A stretch of 64,000 bases of DNA from Mobula birostris. Its lineage: Eukaryota. Every line of letters starts with the position of its first letter. The stretch's first letter is position 1. Shown piece after piece: positions 30,001-36,000 of this stretch. A program made the position numbers. The stretch lies in contig NC_092383.1 in assembly GCF_030028105.1 (NCBI RefSeq), positions 85,889,921 to 85,953,920 on the forward strand. The letters are read 5' to 3'.

Positions 30001-33000
30001 GAGAACATTTGTTCCCAATTTATGCTTCCAAGTTCCTGTCTGATAGCTTCATGTTTTCTCTTACTCCATTTAAACATTTTCCTAAGTTGTCTGCTCCTAT
30101 CCCTCTTCAATGCTATGGTAAAGGAGATAGCATTGTGATCACTGTCTTCAAAATGCTCTCCCACTGAGTGACCCACATGCACGAGGTGTTACATTTTGGG
30201 AGGTCAAATGCAATACAAAATTATGTTGTGACTGGCAGGACCCTTTGGAGCACTGATCTACAATGGGATTGTGGCATGCAAGTCCACAGCTCCCGAAAGT
30301 AACAATGCAAGTGAACAGGGCAGTAAAGGCAGTGTATGGCGTGCTTGCTACCATTGAGTATGAAAGTTGGGAAGTCATGTTGCAACTGTGTAAAACTTTA
30401 TCAACATTTGGAGTAATTGAGTGTAGTTTTGGTCTTCACACTGTAGAAATTATGTGGAGGCTTCGGAGCTGGTGCAATAGAGGTTAACCATGGTTTGGCC
30501 TGGATTAGTGTATAATAGCTATATGGAGAGCTTGGACAAGTTGGAGTGTCAGAGCCTGAGGGGTGAGCTAGTGGAAGAGTATAAAACTATGGAAGGTATA
30601 GATAGGGGAGATAGTCATGGTAAAAGTCTAAAATACCAAAGGACTTACATTTAGGCGAGCAGTAGAAAACTTTGAAGGAGATGTAGGAGGCATTTTTTGA
30701 TACACAGGGAGTATAAATAGCACCTGGAATGGTCTACCAAGGGACGTGGTGGAAGCAGATACAATAGCAACATTGAAATGGTATTTAAACAGACACATGG
30801 ACAGGTAAGAACATGTGTGGGCAGATGGGATTAGTTAGATTGGAATAATGGTCAGCACAGACAGGGTGAACCACAGGGCCTTTCCCTGTGTTATACCCTG
30901 TATGACCTATATTCTATATTCTTTGTTTCACTGAGATTGCCTCTAAGTTGAGAAAGTAGAATTCCAAGCAGTCTCATACAGCAATCTCTCATTATATAAC
31001 AGATTCAAATCCCCAAGAATTTTTCTGGGAAATCTTTGCTGTACTCAATCCATTGTAGGTGTATCCTTCCTTAGGTGGGAAGAACCAGACTTGTACAAAG
31101 TGGTCCAGATGCAGTTTTACCAAAACTCTATGTAATTAGGACAAGATAAATGCCTGAAAGAAATTATGATTGAAGAGGGGGTGGTGGGAGTGGGGTGTCA
31201 GGGTGGATATTGTAGAAGTCAGAATGAGGGACAAGAGCGTTTTGACATTTGTAGAAATGATCTAGCCTCCGAGAGGACTACAACCTTGCTGTGGTTTGTA
31301 GGTATGTGTGCCACAATGACCCCAAGAGCTATGTTGACTGGAGTCAAGGCATTATGCTTTGCCTCTTGATAGGGTCACCTATGTCAAACAGGTTAAAGTG
31401 TGGAGGACAGACTCACAGTGGTCCACTGGTCCTCCAGTTTTGGGGATCCAGCTCAGGGCTAAGAACACTGACTGGCGAAACAAAATTGTTACGGAAAGAG
31501 CAATGAAGTTTCCTTCTACATCTGAGTACGATGGTATTCCAGAGCCTCCAGCGGGACTTGCATGGCTGATGGCAGTGAAGACCATGGGGAGGCTACCGAC
31601 ATGATGAAGGAAGCCCTGAAAATCATGAGAGATGGAGGACCTTCATTGCTGCTCTAAATGCCAGCGGTATATTGGGCAGTAACATATCGATGATCCAGAC
31701 TCAGACCCTCATTGCCAGTTGGTTATACTTGCTGATGAAGGGGAACTGGAAAAGTGTTGGGGGTGGGGGAAGCGTGTGTGGAAGAAGCATTTCAGAATAA
31801 GCTTGACAAAGTTATTATGTGGCTAGATTAAAGCAGAAGAATTACACTCAGTGGCCACTTTATTAGATACAACTATACACCAAATCGTTAATGCAAATAT
31901 CTGATCAGCCAATCAGCCAGTCAGCAACTCAATGCAAAAAATGCATTGCATAAAAGCATGCAGACATGGTCAAAAGATTCAGTTCTTGTTCAGATCAAAC
32001 ATTGGAATGTGGAAGAAATGTTACAGAACAAAAAACATCCAGTGAGCGGCAGTTCTGTGAGTGCAAAAGTTTGCTAATGAGAGAGGTCAGAGGTGTTGGA
32101 AACCACTGCTTTTTAAAATAACACTTTTATAGAAGATTTGTACTTTTCAACAACTCATGTATTTTTCACAGTATGTGGTGATTCATCACTACTCACTGGC
32201 ACTTATTGGCAGAAAGCGGTATAGCAGTTAAGCTAACGGTGTATCAGCTTTCTCATTTTTCATTGGGCTAAGTATTAGCACATTACCAACATGATGTAGT
32301 CTATAAATTAGTTTATCTTTATCTGAGAAATTTTCCTTAACTATAAAAGTGATGGGTATTTCAGAGGCACAATTTTCTTGTCTTTACATTCTTTGCTGTT
32401 CATTTACCTCTTTGCAATGTTTCTCCACTCTGTATTTAGTTTGCTGAGTATTTGTATGTGTGCTTGTACTTTAAAATAGGTGATCATTAGAATTAAGATT
32501 GCTCATCATTCCTGACCCCCAGAAGAACCCTAAGGATCAGAAAATAAACAGAGGTCCGATAGAGGACAATGGCCAGACTGGTTCAAGCTGACAGGACAAC
32601 AACAGTAACTTAAATAACCATGCGTTACAACAGTGGTATGCAGAAGTACATCTCTCAATGCACAGCACATCAAATGTTGAAATGGATGGGCTACAGCAGC
32701 AGAAGCCTACAAACATACATTCAGTGGCCACTTTATGAGGTACAGGAGGTACCTACTAAAGTGGTCACCAAATATATAATACAACAATAAGTCAAGGATG
32801 GAGAAATAAACAATGTAGATTGAAGTAAGCAATTTCCCTAAAAATCAACACAAGTTTCCTGTGCAGTACCAGGAGAGAAAGCTTTCTGTTAGGGGTTTGC
32901 GGGTTGGTTTTGAAATTTGATATCTGCATCGATAACGTTGTCCTCATCAGTAACGGAGTGTACTGCTCTTGATTACCTTTTATATTTCACGTCTGCATAC

Positions 33001-36000
33001 ACAATTCAATTTTCATTGTTAGCCAATTGGGCAGCTGCCTCAGCGTTTTGAACATGGTGTAGATCTGTATAAATGATATTTTCTTCCAACGTGGCTACTT
33101 CCTGAAATAAAGAATAAATTCACAATGTATCTATGACTGATGGATGTGAAAGGTTACAGGGAAAAGGCAGGAACATGAGATGAAAAGATAAACAAATCAG
33201 CCATGATTGAGGGGCAGAGCTCGAAGGGCCGGAAGTGCCTATTCTCTGCTGTAGCTCAATTTAAATCAATCTATAAATATAGGAATAAATATTGCCTGGA
33301 TTGGAGTGTATTAGCTGTGGGCAGAAGTTGGACAAACTCAGATTGTTTTTGCTGGAGTGTTGGAGAGATCTGTGAGAAGTCTAAAATGTTATAGAAGGTA
33401 TAGATAGGGAAGATAATAGGAATCTTTTTTCCAGGGTTGAAATATTAAATAATGGTATTAATAATAATAGTTTGAGGGTGATCGTGGGAAAGTTTAAAGG
33501 ACGTTTGCGAGACAAGTTTTGTTTTACACTGCGGGTGGTGACTGCGTGGAATGCACAGTCAGACCCGCTGGTGGAAACAGAGACAATAAGGTGCTTTTGG
33601 ACATGGACATGAAAAGAGAAGGTTTGGAGGGATCCGGACCACATGAATTAGCTTAGAATCACTTCATGGTCAGTGCAGACATGGTGGGTCATGGAGTCCA
33701 TTCTTGTGCTGGACTGTGTCCCAAGTTCTCTCTAATTCCATTGCCCTATTTCCCACCAGGAATCGGTCTGATGGCGAGTCTGGCTGCCGGGAAATGGATG
33801 GTCAGTGGGTGCTGGGGGGTGGAGTATTGGAGCACATTGATGGGGACAGATAAAAAGAGCACAGAATAAGGGACGGGGTGACTGATCCATGAAACAGGGA
33901 TGGGATGTGGAATAGTCTGCCCTGGGAGGACTGAACACAGTCTGTTTAGCGCTGAGAACTGATTCCCTTTTTATGATTTTCAAGTTATTTAGATCTTGAG
34001 TAACACTTGCTTCTCATCGACCTGTTATTGTTGGATTACTACTTTTCTGAATGTAAATCTTTGACATTTCATACAGTTCAAAGACAGGAAAATATGCTGA
34101 GTTTCCTACTGGAAATTGGTATCCAGTCAGTGGGTCAGACCCCACACTTAGTGAAAGAAACATGGCTGGAGTTTCCCGACTCCTGCCCACAGCCTGCAGT
34201 GCTCTGAATGGCTGTGGAGCTTCAGGATATCCATGCTGTCCTTACCTTTCCCAGAGAAAATATGAATCAGACACTTCAGTGGGGACATCAAGTCAATCAA
34301 AGAGAAACCTACCGTCAGATACTTGTAGATGCACGTCATACACTGGATGATTGCCAGATGTTGTAATTCCACATCTGTAAAGTCCTGTATCATTAGAGAC
34401 AAGATTCTCCATAGTAACAGTAAATATTCCCTGGTATGTGTTATCTCTGATTGTCATTCCTCCATACTGCTCATTTGTCCCAATTGTATTCATTAACAAT
34501 GTGCATTGGCGATCCCACATGCGGCACAAATACTTTGTGTGTGAACGGTACATTGGTGCATAGTGACAATCGATTGTGATTGCTCTTCCCGCAACTCCTC
34601 TTACTTTATCTTCTGCCCATAAAGCACCTGAAACTGAGGGAGAATTTTTTCAGAAAATGGATAGGTAAAATCAAATTCACTCAAGCAGATTCTAGATAGT
34701 TTAATGTCACTTCCAGGACCTAAGTGCAAAGGAGGACAAAATACTTGTTACTTTGGATAGAATGCTGCTCACAAAAATAAGCACAATTGATAAAGAACAC
34801 AATGTGAAAAGTTGTTTTATTTAAAGCTGTCACTGCATTCTAAGGAATCTACCCGCTGTCAATTGGTACAATTGAATTCCACATTAAACTTAGAAGACAA
34901 CAGCATTGTCCCTCATCACGTGCTCACAGCTCTTCATAAGTAATGATTTTTATTTGATTGGAGTCATCATTATCACTGCCTACTAATGTCTCGGTGTGTT
35001 TCTACATTTCTGAGTCAATAGATTACTGATCCAGTCCCATTCCAGGCAGGTGAGCATAAGATCAGTGGTGGGTAACTTACTGGAGGTGATTGTGTGAAAC
35101 AGGATCTACCTGAAATTGTAAAGGCTAGATCTGATTTTGGATTGTCAACATGGTTTTGTGCTTGAGAGATTGTGTCTCAAAAAAAATGGACTGAGTTTAT
35201 GTGAAGAGGTGACCAAAAGGACTGATGAGGACAGGGAGAGGGTTCAGAGAAGATTCACAAGAATGATTGCAGGAATGAAAGGGTTACTATATGAGGAACA
35301 TCTGGCAGCTCTTGGGCTGTATTCCCTGGAGTTCAGGAGAATGAGGAGGGATCTCATAGAAACATTCCGAATGTTAAAAGGCCTGAACAGATTAGGTATG
35401 GCAAAGTTATTTCCCATGGCAGAGCAGACTCGATGGGCCAAATGGCCTACTCTGCTCCTATATCTTACGGTCTTATGACAATAGAGGTTAGCACACGGAG
35501 ATCAGCAACGTCTTTGAGAAAGTTTCACATAGTAGACTGGTCTGTAATGTGGGATCACATGATAAGCCAGAAGGATGGATACTGAATAGGTTTGGTGGAA
35601 GGAGCAGATTGGTAGTGGAACGTTGTTTTTCTGACAACATCAGACTTCATCACCAGTTGCGTGTTGTCGGAATCAGCGTTCTTATTTATTAACCAGATAT
35701 TTATCATCTATATTGATAATTTGCAATTGTAATGTAGGTGGCATGATTAATAAATTGTGGGTGATATTGTAGTGCAGTGGAAACAGCAGAAGTTTACAAT
35801 AGGATCTAGAAAATAAACCGGTGTTCAGCCCCATTACTCTGTGCCAGCACGATCCCCCCACCTGAGCCCATCCTGTATGCCTGTATTTGACCCATCTCCC
35901 TCTCTTCTCAGTACTACCATCGAGAGGGAGGAGCAGGATCCTGGGTCCTATGCCAGGACCAGTGTCACCCTCCTCTGCACTGAACTGACTCTGCAGCTGT

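What the first reader, a model, noticed from the sequence alone, without database searches (positions are those of the whole stretch)
32889..33101. Orphan ITIM tail exon lying directly behind a V exon, with no C2 or TM between them
IIYTDL and IVYADV fit the (I/V/L/S)xYxx(L/V) ITIM consensus. VIDADI looks like a third motif with Tyr changed to Asp, in a roughly 22-24 aa repeat spacing. There are two in-frame stops. Similarity of the V-downstream intron to the 60-61 kb copy ends at about 33290 next to a CR1 tail, which suggests a deletion removed C2, stalk and TM from an inhibitory gene. This shows the cluster held both inhibitory and activating members.
Basis: partly seen in the sequence, partly recalled or inferred. 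Interest (0 to 1): 0.65.

Follow-up and report, generated by a model that had tools for sequence, protein, structure and literature searches.

The report
Stranded, decayed ITIM tail exon
A short stretch behind an immune-receptor V exon looks like the broken leftover of an inhibitory signalling tail, an ordinary kind of debris in a decaying receptor gene cluster, but this could not be confirmed against any outside sequence.

Summary
On the minus strand a pyrimidine-rich AG acceptor (33102-33120) opens a frame at 33101. It reads EVATLEENIIYTDL...NNEN-TGA-IVYADVKYKR-TAA-...VIDADI...TAA and ends at 32889.

The loose ITIM consensus is common in this window: 366 hits and 19 same-frame pairs. What stands out:
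- two classical-type motifs 24 residues apart, with about 0.004 such pairs expected (post hoc pattern);
- acidic context;
- a weak in-frame three-unit repeat (22 of 2000 shuffles reach it);
- no detectable transposon origin.

The exon lies 1.2 kb behind an intact pIgR/CD300-like V exon (34313-34627). No C2 or TM exon lies between them. The V donor is phase 1 and the ITIM frame needs phase 0. The two TM-like exons elsewhere in the window end in phase 0.

Homology to the 60-62 kb copy stops at 33291, beside a CR1 3' fragment. A deletion is not shown, and a duplication boundary fits equally well.

Best reading: relic tail exon of an inhibitory paralogue (confidence about 0.5). No eukaryote database was open, so homology is untested. 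Low interest.

The parts
33102..33120 (-). Splice-acceptor-like signal: pyrimidine-rich tract ending in cAG (AG at 33103-33102).
   Evidence: Read directly from the sequence. It passes the acceptor rule used (at least 10 of 12 pyrimidines at -3 to -14, then AG).
32889..33101 (-). Tail-exon-like frame of 71 codons. It reads EVATLEENIIYTDLHHVQNAEAAAQLANNEN*IVYADVKYKR*SRAVHSVTDEDNVIDADIKFQNQPANP*.
   Evidence: Translations. It is unique in the window (tblastn, blastn). No Pfam hit for the first 31 residues, the only part scanned; no meaningful PDB hit.
33060..33077 (-). ITIM-type motif 1, IIYTDL, preceded by EEN.
33006..33008 (-). In-frame TGA between motif 1 and motif 2. It ends a 31-residue reading that keeps one ITIM.
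32988..33005 (-). ITIM-type motif 2, IVYADV, with its Tyr 24 residues after the first Tyr.
32973..32975 (-). In-frame TAA after KYKR. AAAAG|GTAATC at 32977/32976 also reads as a possible splice donor.
   Evidence: The donor reading is my own inspection of the sequence and was not tested.
32922..32939 (-). Third unit, VIDADI, with Asp where the Tyr would be. It lies in the same frame, preceded by EDN.
   Evidence: The unit 1/unit 3 DNA alignment has an in-frame gap. The unit pattern is found only at these three places in the window (post hoc pattern).
33121..33271 (+). 5'-truncated 3' end of a CR1-like LINE, antisense to the receptor genes, 20 nt upstream of the acceptor.
   Evidence: nhmmer with a profile of 10 CR1-like 3' ends from this window: alignment 33141-33254, envelope 33121-33271, E=2.6e-11. 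blastn gives 78% identity to the 59.9-60.3 kb copy. The fragment does not extend into the exon.
33112..33119 (.). GAATAAAT, left copy of a possible target-site duplication of the young CR1 fragment. The right copy lies at 33283-33290.
   Evidence: An 8-mer shared by the two 46-nt flanks arises in 405 of 5000 shuffles, so the evidence is weak.
33291..33605 (+). Older CR1-like fragment shared with the 60.6-61.1 kb copy. Its 5' edge is where the paralogue homology ends.
   Evidence: blastn 33291-35229 against 60655-62578, 76.8%. nhmmer 33336-33580, E=3.1e-4, and 60889-61100, E=6.9e-4. An independent copy at 30498 starts at the same point.
34313..34627 (-). V34: intact V-set exon of pIgR/CD300 type, 315 nt. 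Acceptor tttcag|GT; donor GACG|GTAGGT; phase 1 at both ends.
   Evidence: Pfam PF07686 E=4.1e-9. PDB phmmer: pIgR 5.5e-45, CLM-1/CD300LF 1e-14, with four Cys aligned. Splice sites read from the alignment.
32716..32775 (.). Back-to-back inverted-repeat ends of a Tc1-like element, starting 114 nt downstream of the last stop.
   Evidence: the repeat finder D3 and I3 and the sequence. The Tc1 identity is a recalled resemblance. Pfam found nothing in the 58-residue ORF tested.
49165..49255 (-). TM-like exon of 91 nt, FMIWKVGRWLLFTLLLICTISVSWFTREIK. It ends in phase 0. A second copy lies at 8979-9069.
   Evidence: The two copies are 73% identical as peptides and keep hydrophobicity. Status as an exon is inferred.
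59057..59404 (-). C2-type Ig exon (open-frame coordinates). Paralogues lie at 14489-14839 and 19810-20151. No such exon follows V34.
   Evidence: Pfam Ig_3 at 24.8 bits, below the 30-bit cut-off. PDB FcRL5 E=3.7e-32 over repeated domains. tblastn finds only these three. Phase 1 at both ends.
61694..61991 (-). V61, the paralogue whose downstream intron matches that of V34. It carries a 17-nt deletion that shifts the frame.

Best explanation
The stretch 32889-33101 (minus strand) is most likely the decayed terminal exon of an inhibitory member of a pIgR/CD300-like receptor cluster. That exon once encoded the cytoplasmic tail.

The tail was built from three tandem units of 22-24 codons, each of the form acidic-acidic-Asn-[IV][IV]-Tyr-[AT]-Asp-[LVI].

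How an intact version would work (inferred, not shown): Src-family kinases phosphorylate the tyrosines after receptor clustering. The paired phosphotyrosines dock the tandem SH2 domains of SHP-1/SHP-2-type phosphatases. These damp the signalling of neighbouring activating receptors.

In the present sequence:
- a TGA cuts the frame after the first motif;
- a TAA follows the second motif;
- the third unit has Asp in place of Tyr.

The exon now lies 1.2 kb behind an intact V exon with no C2 or TM exon between them. It cannot be joined to that V exon in the ITIM frame through its main acceptor. As it stands it signals nothing.

It became stranded through a rearrangement at the 5' edge of an older CR1-like element in the V-to-C2 intron. 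I favour loss of the internal exons, but which rearrangement occurred is not shown.
For: 1. Anatomy: a pyrimidine-rich AG acceptor, then an open 31-codon frame with an ITIM; a second ITIM follows 24 residues on.
2. Two of the window's 7 hits to [ILV]xY[AST][DEQN][ILV] lie here in one frame, against about 0.004 pairs expected (the pattern is post hoc).
3. The context is acidic: fraction 0.19 against at most 0.07 in the other 19 loose-motif pair rows.
4. There is an in-frame three-unit repeat, with synonymous third-position differences between units (GAA/GAG, AAT/AAC, ATT/ATC, GAT/GAC) and an in-frame 3-nt gap. The summed score is reached by 22 of 2000 shuffles.
5. Strand and position fit. The exon lies on the gene strand, after V34 and before the copy of the V34-upstream block at 23.07-24.67 kb, which I read as the next unit's upstream region.
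6. Phase fits. The ITIM frame needs a phase 0 acceptor, and both TM-like exons of the window end in phase 0. That is a 1-in-3 coincidence otherwise.
7. The exon is not explained by transposon sequence.
   - Collinear and local alignment to the CR1 consensus is no better than shuffles (z = -0.83 to +0.84).
   - The mariner-like fragment scores at the shuffle mean (267-268 of 1000 shuffles reach it).
   - It is single-copy in the window.
8. The neighbourhood is a graveyard of the same family, so an orphan exon is in character.
   - V61 has a 17-nt frameshifting deletion.
   - V49 is truncated and has lost its acceptor.
   - V16 has Tyr for the second canonical Cys.
   - C14 has its donor changed from GT to AT.
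9. The ITIM consensus, SHP-1/2 recruitment and a 22-residue tandem spacing in PECAM-1 and IpLITR 1.1b come from passages of PMC4810170.
Against: - No homologue of the exon was found or could be sought. There is no second copy in the window. PDB gives 0 hits at E<=10 for the 31-residue part and only a dextransucrase at E=0.075 for the X-read 71-mer. The best Atlas score is 0.78, below the tool's lead level.
- By the published loose consensus the pair is unremarkable: 19 such pairs in the window, with about 2.4 expected to carry an acceptor.
- The narrow pattern and the acidity measure were chosen after seeing the sequence.
- The repeat signal is weak. The unit 1/unit 2 score equals the shuffle mean (1263 of 2000 shuffles reach it).
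- There is no AATAAA or ATTAAA until 31864, about 1 kb past the last stop.
- No TM exon is attached, so the defining location of an ITIM is unproven.
- The rearrangement itself is not resolved.
Confidence: 0.5

Rival explanations
1. Chance: the stretch never was coding. In an AT-rich intergenic segment an AG acceptor, a short open frame and two Tyr motifs arose by accident. A small local triplication could have copied one accidental motif.
For: - The loose ITIM consensus hits 366 times, with 19 same-frame pairs in 64 kb.
- 46 of the 366 hits have an acceptor-like site upstream.
- My estimate is about 2.4 pairs with an acceptor expected, against 1 seen.
- There are two stops within 43 codons.
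- No homologue was found in any library that could be searched.
- No polyadenylation signal lies nearby.
- If the units are duplicates, the motifs are one event and not two.
Against: - A strict-pattern pair has an expectation of about 0.004.
- The acidic context is unlike that of the other 19 pair rows.
- The differences between units are in frame and partly synonymous.
- Strand, position and phase agree with the receptor genes.
Confidence: 0.3
2. Live exon: the stretch is still used as the last exon of a working inhibitory gene. It would encode a 31-residue tail with a single ITIM ending at the TGA. It would be spliced from a phase 0 TM exon that lies far upstream (for example 49165-49255) or outside the window.
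For: - The acceptor is intact and the frame is open from it through the first ITIM.
- A stop in a last exon does not by itself disable a gene (established knowledge of nonsense-mediated decay rules).
- The TM-like exons end in phase 0, which would read ...WFTREIK|EVATLEENIIYTDL.
Against: - The nearest TM-like exon is 16 kb upstream, with the V34 exon and several LINE fragments in between.
- Both TM-like exons are followed about 115 nt later by a conserved candidate micro-exon, ctgcag|ATG...MILSRC-stop. That would end those genes with a short tail (inferred).
- The V exons upstream of that TM exon are broken (V61, V49).
- No polyadenylation signal lies within 1 kb.
Confidence: 0.1
3. Same relic exon, other history: nothing was deleted. 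A 2.9 kb block carrying the V exon (33291 to about 36190) was copied and landed in the intron in front of the tail exon of a different inhibitory gene. The V, C2 and TM exons of that gene now lie elsewhere or are lost.
For: - Homology to the 60-63 kb copy begins exactly at the 5' edge of a CR1-like fragment, and an independent copy at 30498 starts at the same base.
- The homology ends near 36190/63300, so it behaves as a discrete block.
- The 60 kb copy has a different repeat at the same edge.
- The young CR1 fragment may be a plain insertion with an 8-nt duplication, which removes the one element that could have caused a deletion.
Against: - No tail, microsatellite or target duplication was seen at the far end of the block.
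- The copy at 16-17 kb shares the V exon, 250 nt of its downstream intron and the upstream block as well. Whole-unit duplication followed by loss is therefore the simpler history.
- The 8-nt repeat arises by chance in 405 of 5000 shuffles.
Confidence: 0.1

Closest known systems
Tandem-ITIM cytoplasmic tails of inhibitory Ig-superfamily receptors (for example PECAM-1 and catfish IpLITR 1.1b, as described in PMC4810170)
   Same: Both motifs fit S/I/V/LxYxxI/V/L. The tyrosines lie 24 residues apart, against 22 in PECAM-1 and IpLITR 1.1b (passages seen). The tail is short, acidic and non-hydrophobic, and is encoded in a terminal exon.
   Different: Here the frame is cut by a TGA between the motifs. 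A third unit has lost its Tyr. No TM segment is attached. No phosphorylation or phosphatase binding is known.
CD300 / CMRF35-like molecules and pIgR (the V exon next to the finding)
   Same: V34 is a V-set domain whose best solved relatives are pIgR domains and CLM-1/CD300LF. It has four aligned Cys and a YLCR version of the YWCR motif. PMC3031540 names that motif as typical of CD300 (passage seen). CD300 families mix ITIM-bearing and charged-TM members.
   Different: The paralogues here pair the V exon with an FcRL-like C2 exon, which CD300 genes lack. pIgR has only V-type domains and no ITIM.
[quoted passage not shown]
   Same: PMC3031540 describes them as multigene families of activating/inhibitory receptors of cartilaginous fish related to CD300, TREM, FCAR and pIgR (passages seen). 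That is the kind of cluster seen here.
   Different: No sequence comparison was possible. The original paper (PMC3701310) is not held and no eukaryote protein set was open. The species of this window is unknown.
[quoted passage not shown]
   Same: It is a CD300-like V domain protein without TM or signalling motif (abstract and passages seen). If V34 were spliced to 33101 it would also give a V-only product, ending GSSHVGRKYHLYRSTPCSKR-stop (frames).
   Different: SITR has two Ig domains and is a proven secreted protein. Here neither a leader exon nor a transcript is shown.

Membership tests
ITIM-bearing inhibitory receptor tail | At least one motif fitting (S/I/V/L)xYxx(I/V/L) | tested here: met
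   IIYTDL and IVYADV. The consensus is taken from a passage of PMC4810170.
ITIM-bearing inhibitory receptor tail | Motifs lie in the cytoplasmic part of a transmembrane protein, downstream of a TM segment in the same transcript | tested here: not met
   There is no TM-like or C2-like exon between V34 and the exon. The V donor is phase 1 and the ITIM frame needs phase 0. The only TM-like exons lie at 8979-9069 and 49165-49255.
ITIM-bearing inhibitory receptor tail | Uninterrupted reading frame across the motifs | tested here: not met
   TGA at 33008-33006 lies between the two motifs and TAA at 32975-32973 follows the second.
ITIM-bearing inhibitory receptor tail | Tyr phosphorylation and recruitment of SHP-1/SHP-2/SHIP | not testable with these tools
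   This needs a chimeric-receptor pull-down such as the one described for IpLITR tails in PMC4810170.
ITIM-bearing inhibitory receptor tail | Sequence homology to the tail exon of a known or transcribed receptor | not testable with these tools
PDB and Atlas gave nothing meaningful.
CD300 / pIgR-type V domain (V34, the neighbour) | V-set Ig domain with two disulfide pairs and a (Y)WCR-type motif | tested here: met
   PF07686 E=4.1e-9. Four Cys align with pIgR D1, and the motif reads KYLCR against KYWCR. The fold model was unusable at pLDDT 43.9.
CD300 family proper | Single V domain followed directly by stalk and TM | tested here: not met
   Two paralogous V exons (V16, V61) are followed by an FcRL-like C2 exon (C14, C59); a third C2 exon, C19, has no V exon upstream.
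Skate MDIR family | Sequence relationship to the MDIR cDNAs; clustered activating and inhibitory forms | not testable with these tools
   Only a secondary description was seen (PMC3031540). The primary paper is not held.
CR1-like LINE (fragment 33121-33271) | Match to the 3' end shared by the window's CR1-like copies | tested here: met
   nhmmer E=2.6e-11, model positions 304-423 of 448.

The most novel reading that the evidence does not exclude
The rearrangement did not merely kill an inhibitory gene. It made a new one. The intact V34 exon, spliced to the old tail exon's acceptor, reads it in another frame (GSSHVGRKYHLYRSTPCSKR-stop). The product would be a secreted, V-only, CD300/pIgR-like decoy of the SITR kind, born from an inhibitory receptor by loss of its C2 and TM exons.
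Probability: 0.06. Interest if true: 0.5.

Novelty: new member of a known kind. Interest (0 to 1): 0.25.

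Why it matters
If real, the exon is the only trace in this window that the pIgR/CD300-like cluster once had an ITIM-bearing inhibitory member beside charged-TM members. Paired receptor families normally have both. It would also show a multi-ITIM tail built by in-frame triplication of one unit. Orphan and broken exons are routine in birth-and-death receptor clusters, so the finding mainly matters for annotation. The V exon at 34.3-34.6 kb should not be modelled as an inhibitory gene by joining it to this exon.

Tried and rejected
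1. Antisense CR1 origin of the exon. A MAFFT alignment looked suggestive. However:
   - the nhmmer envelope stops at 33121;
   - the local score of 18.0 equals the shuffle mean of 17.9 (506 of 1000 shuffles reach it);
   - collinear global alignments over 40, 70 and 110 nt give z = +0.84, -0.33 and -0.83.
   Rejected.
2. Origin from the mariner-like fragment. The score of 11.0 compares with a shuffle mean of 10.1 (267 and 268 of 1000 shuffles reach it). Rejected.
3. A second copy of the exon or its unit in the window: none.
4. A TM exon between V34 and the exon. The only mildly hydrophobic stretches lie antisense in CR1 fragments or in a Pro-rich frame. None resembles the TM-like exons.
5. Library searches.
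   - Pfam on the 31-residue ORF: nothing.
   - PDB: 0 hits; chance hits only for the X-read 71-mer.
   - Atlas: best score 0.78.
   - Rfam over 30-36 kb: 0.
6. AlphaFold2 of V34 with 3 rows gave pLDDT 43.9 and was unusable, so no fold search was run.
7. A leader exon for V34. A hydrophobic stretch with a conserved GTAACA donor lies about 110 nt upstream in all four copies. It has no in-frame ATG in V34 or V61. Left unresolved.
8. 3'-transduction of the V block. No tail or duplication was seen at its far end.
9. The MDIR paper and a review were not held. Three literature searches gave one relevant paper.

Full report
**What is there.** The genes of this window run on the minus strand.
- At 33120-33102 a pyrimidine-rich tract ends in cAG.
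- From 33101 the frame reads EVATLEENIIYTDLHHVQNAEAAAQLANNEN, then TGA (33008-33006).
- It continues IVYADVKYKR, then TAA (32975-32973).
- It continues SRAVHSVTDEDNVIDADIKFQNQPANP, then TAA (32891-32889).
- The window has no N.

**Is it more than chance?** By the published loose consensus (S/I/V/LxYxxI/V/L; passage of PMC4810170) it is not.
- The pattern occurs 366 times in about 128,000 six-frame codons.
- 19 same-frame pairs lie 18-35 residues apart with at most one stop.
- 46 of the 366 hits have a pyrimidine-rich AG within 30 open codons upstream. Exactly 1 pair has both features, and it is the finding.
- 19 x 46/366 predicts about 2.4 such pairs by chance.

Narrower measures single it out, with the caveat that I chose them after seeing the sequence.
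- [ILV]xY[AST][DEQN][ILV] has 7 hits (5.5 expected). Two of them form this pair, against about 0.004 pairs expected.
- The acidic fraction of the segment is 0.19, against at most 0.07 in each of the other 19 rows.

The three motif-bearing units also resemble each other at DNA level.
- Unit 1 against unit 3 aligns as EENIIYTDLHHVQN / EDNVIDADI-KFQN, with an in-frame 3-nt gap and several synonymous differences.
- The summed score of 28 is reached by 22 of 2000 dinucleotide shuffles.
- Unit 1 against unit 2 alone is at the shuffle mean.
- The unit pattern occurs nowhere else in the window.
- The third motif therefore looks like a real degenerate copy. The two ITIMs are duplicates of one unit and not independent events.

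**Not a by-product of a repeat.**
- A 5'-truncated CR1-like 3' end lies on the plus strand at 33121-33271, directly upstream of the acceptor (nhmmer E=2.6e-11; blastn).
- I tested whether the exon is its antisense continuation. A MAFFT alignment looked suggestive. Local and collinear alignments to the consensus are no better than shuffles.
- A mariner-like fragment that abuts the paralogous copy gives no similarity either.
- The 350-nt segment 32776-33125 is single-copy in the window.
- Pfam, PDB, the Atlas and Rfam gave nothing meaningful.

**The neighbourhood.** Four V-set exons of pIgR/CD300 type lie on the same strand (Pfam; PDB best hits pIgR and CLM-1/CD300LF; alignment).
- V16 (open frame 16235-16609) has Tyr at the second canonical Cys.
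- V34 (exon 34313-34627) is intact.
- V49 (49672-49866) is truncated, has a 12-nt deletion, and its acceptor AG is changed to GG.
- V61 (61694-61991) has a 17-nt frameshifting deletion.

Three C2-type exons resembling FcRL domains lie at 14489-14839, 19810-20151 and 59057-59404. The first has its donor changed from GT to AT.

Two 91-nt TM-like exons with an Arg near the start of the hydrophobic core lie at 8979-9069 and 49165-49255. That such an Arg marks adaptor-coupled activating receptors is recalled knowledge and not a result obtained here.

V and C2 exons are phase 1 at both ends. The TM-like exons end in phase 0. This is a decaying multigene cluster. V34 is the only V exon without a visible defect.

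**V34 and the tail exon.**
- Between 33102 and 34312 there is no C2-like exon (tblastn).
- There is no TM-like exon either. A 19-residue scan at hydropathy 2.0 found nothing. A 17-residue scan at 1.3, which does detect the two control TM exons, found only stretches antisense to CR1 fragments and one Pro-rich frame.
- Spliced from V34 (phase 1) into 33101, the exon would read GSSHVGRKYHLYRSTPCSKR-stop and not the ITIM frame.
- A second AG four bases inside the exon would restore the ITIM frame. That product would put an ITIM on a protein without a membrane anchor.
- The ITIM frame needs a phase 0 junction, which is what the TM-like exons offer.
- No AATAAA or ATTAAA follows until 31864.
- A nest of Tc1-like ends begins at 32775, 114 nt past the last stop. 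The Tc1 identity is recalled, and Pfam was silent.

**The breakpoint.**
- V34's downstream intron matches V61's: 33291-35229 against 60655-62578 at 76.8%.
- The edge at 33291 is the 5' end of an older CR1-like fragment present in both copies. An independent copy at 30498 starts at the same base.
- Below the edge, the 34 kb copy has the young CR1 fragment and then the tail exon.
- Below the edge, the 60 kb copy has a mariner-like fragment (60420-60646, 91% identical to 29067-29294), then a CR1 on the other strand, then its C2 exon. The mariner identity is recalled from the translation.
- GAATAAAT flanks the young CR1 fragment on both sides (33112-33119 and 33283-33290). If this is a target duplication, the CR1 was a plain insertion and did not cause a deletion. 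The repeat arises by chance in 405 of 5000 shuffles.
A duplication boundary, or insertion of the V block in front of another gene's tail, fits the same facts (one search found no end signature for the latter).
- By position the exon belongs to the V34 unit. A copy of the block upstream of V34 (36526-37971, 77% identical) lies only at 23.07-24.47 kb, and I read it as the next unit's upstream region.

**How it works.** In an intact receptor, a tail of this kind is phosphorylated on its tyrosines and recruits SHP-1/SHP-2 through their SH2 domains. Tandem motifs 22 residues apart are described for PECAM-1 and IpLITR 1.1b (PMC4810170, passages). Here that is inference from motif and spacing only. 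In its present state the exon has no membrane anchor and a stop after the first motif. I take it to be inert.

**Comparison with what is known.**
- The V domain is of the CD300/pIgR kind, with four Cys and YLCR for YWCR (PMC3031540 passage).
- The V plus FcRL-like C2 layout is not that of CD300 proper.
- Skate MDIRs are described secondarily as activating/inhibitory multigene families related to CD300, TREM, FCAR and pIgR (PMC3031540). They are the likeliest named family, but no comparison was possible.
- The species of the window was not determined.

**What stayed unchecked.**
- The primary MDIR paper was not held.
- Exons were searched one by one.
- The AlphaFold2 model of V34 was too poor to use.

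**Verdict.** The stretch is most likely a relic inhibitory-tail exon (about 0.5) in a decaying pIgR/CD300-like cluster. This is ordinary for such clusters, and interest is low.

Noticed in passing
window 8979-9069 and 49165-49255 (minus): There are two copies of a 91-nt TM-like exon (FMIW[EK]VGRW...WFTRE[TI]K) with an Arg at the start of the hydrophobic core. The exon starts in phase 2 and ends in phase 0, so it cannot follow a C2 exon (phase 1) directly. A small exon between them may be missing from my model.
   Followed up: partly
window 8844-8864 and 49030-49050 (minus): About 115 nt after each TM-like exon lies a conserved ctgcag|ATG ATA TTG TCA AGA TGT stop (MILSRC). It could be a short terminal exon of activating-type genes.
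   Followed up: no
window 49165-49255 (minus), other frame: The same 91 nt read in phase 0 gives FHDMEGWSLAALHSAADLHYFSLMVHKGN-stop, with an ITIM-like LHYFSL. The 9 kb copy lacks the Tyr, and this frame is less conserved than the TM frame.
   Followed up: partly
window 16252-16566 against 34313-34627: The 28 differences between the V16 and V34 exons fall 9, 15 and 4 on codon positions 1, 2 and 3. That is an excess of replacement changes. The exons are 89-91% identical, against 73-78% for the intron just upstream. This may reflect diversifying selection or gene conversion.
   Followed up: no
window 14504-14506; 16235-16609; 61694-61991; 49672-49866: Every V or C2 unit except V34, C19 and C59 carries a visible defect. 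C14 has its donor changed from GT to AT. V16 has Tyr for Cys. V61 has a 17-nt deletion. V49 is truncated and has lost its acceptor.
   Followed up: partly
window 23073-24665 against 36526-39856: The block upstream of V34 is duplicated at 77-86% identity, including a CR1 at the same relative place. The duplicate has no V exon after it. A C2 exon (19810-20151) lies 3 kb further on.
   Followed up: no
window 20801-21781: A 1 kb nest of GC-rich tandem repeats (periods 5, 31, 64, 97) lies where the V exon of that unit would be expected.
   Followed up: no
window 34755-34811, 62128-62184, 49984-50040 (minus): A hydrophobic, leader-like stretch with a conserved GTAACA donor lies about 110 nt upstream of the V exons. 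It has no in-frame ATG in V34 or V61, so the true first exon was not found.
   Followed up: partly
window 29067-29294 and 60420-60646: Two copies of a fragment are 91% identical. Its translation resembles the C-terminal end of a mariner transposase (recalled resemblance). They are much younger than the surrounding 77% paralogy.
   Followed up: partly
window 45700-46959 (minus): A 420-codon open frame lies in an AT-rich LINE-like element. It is the longest ORF in the window and may be a recently active retrotransposon.
   Followed up: no
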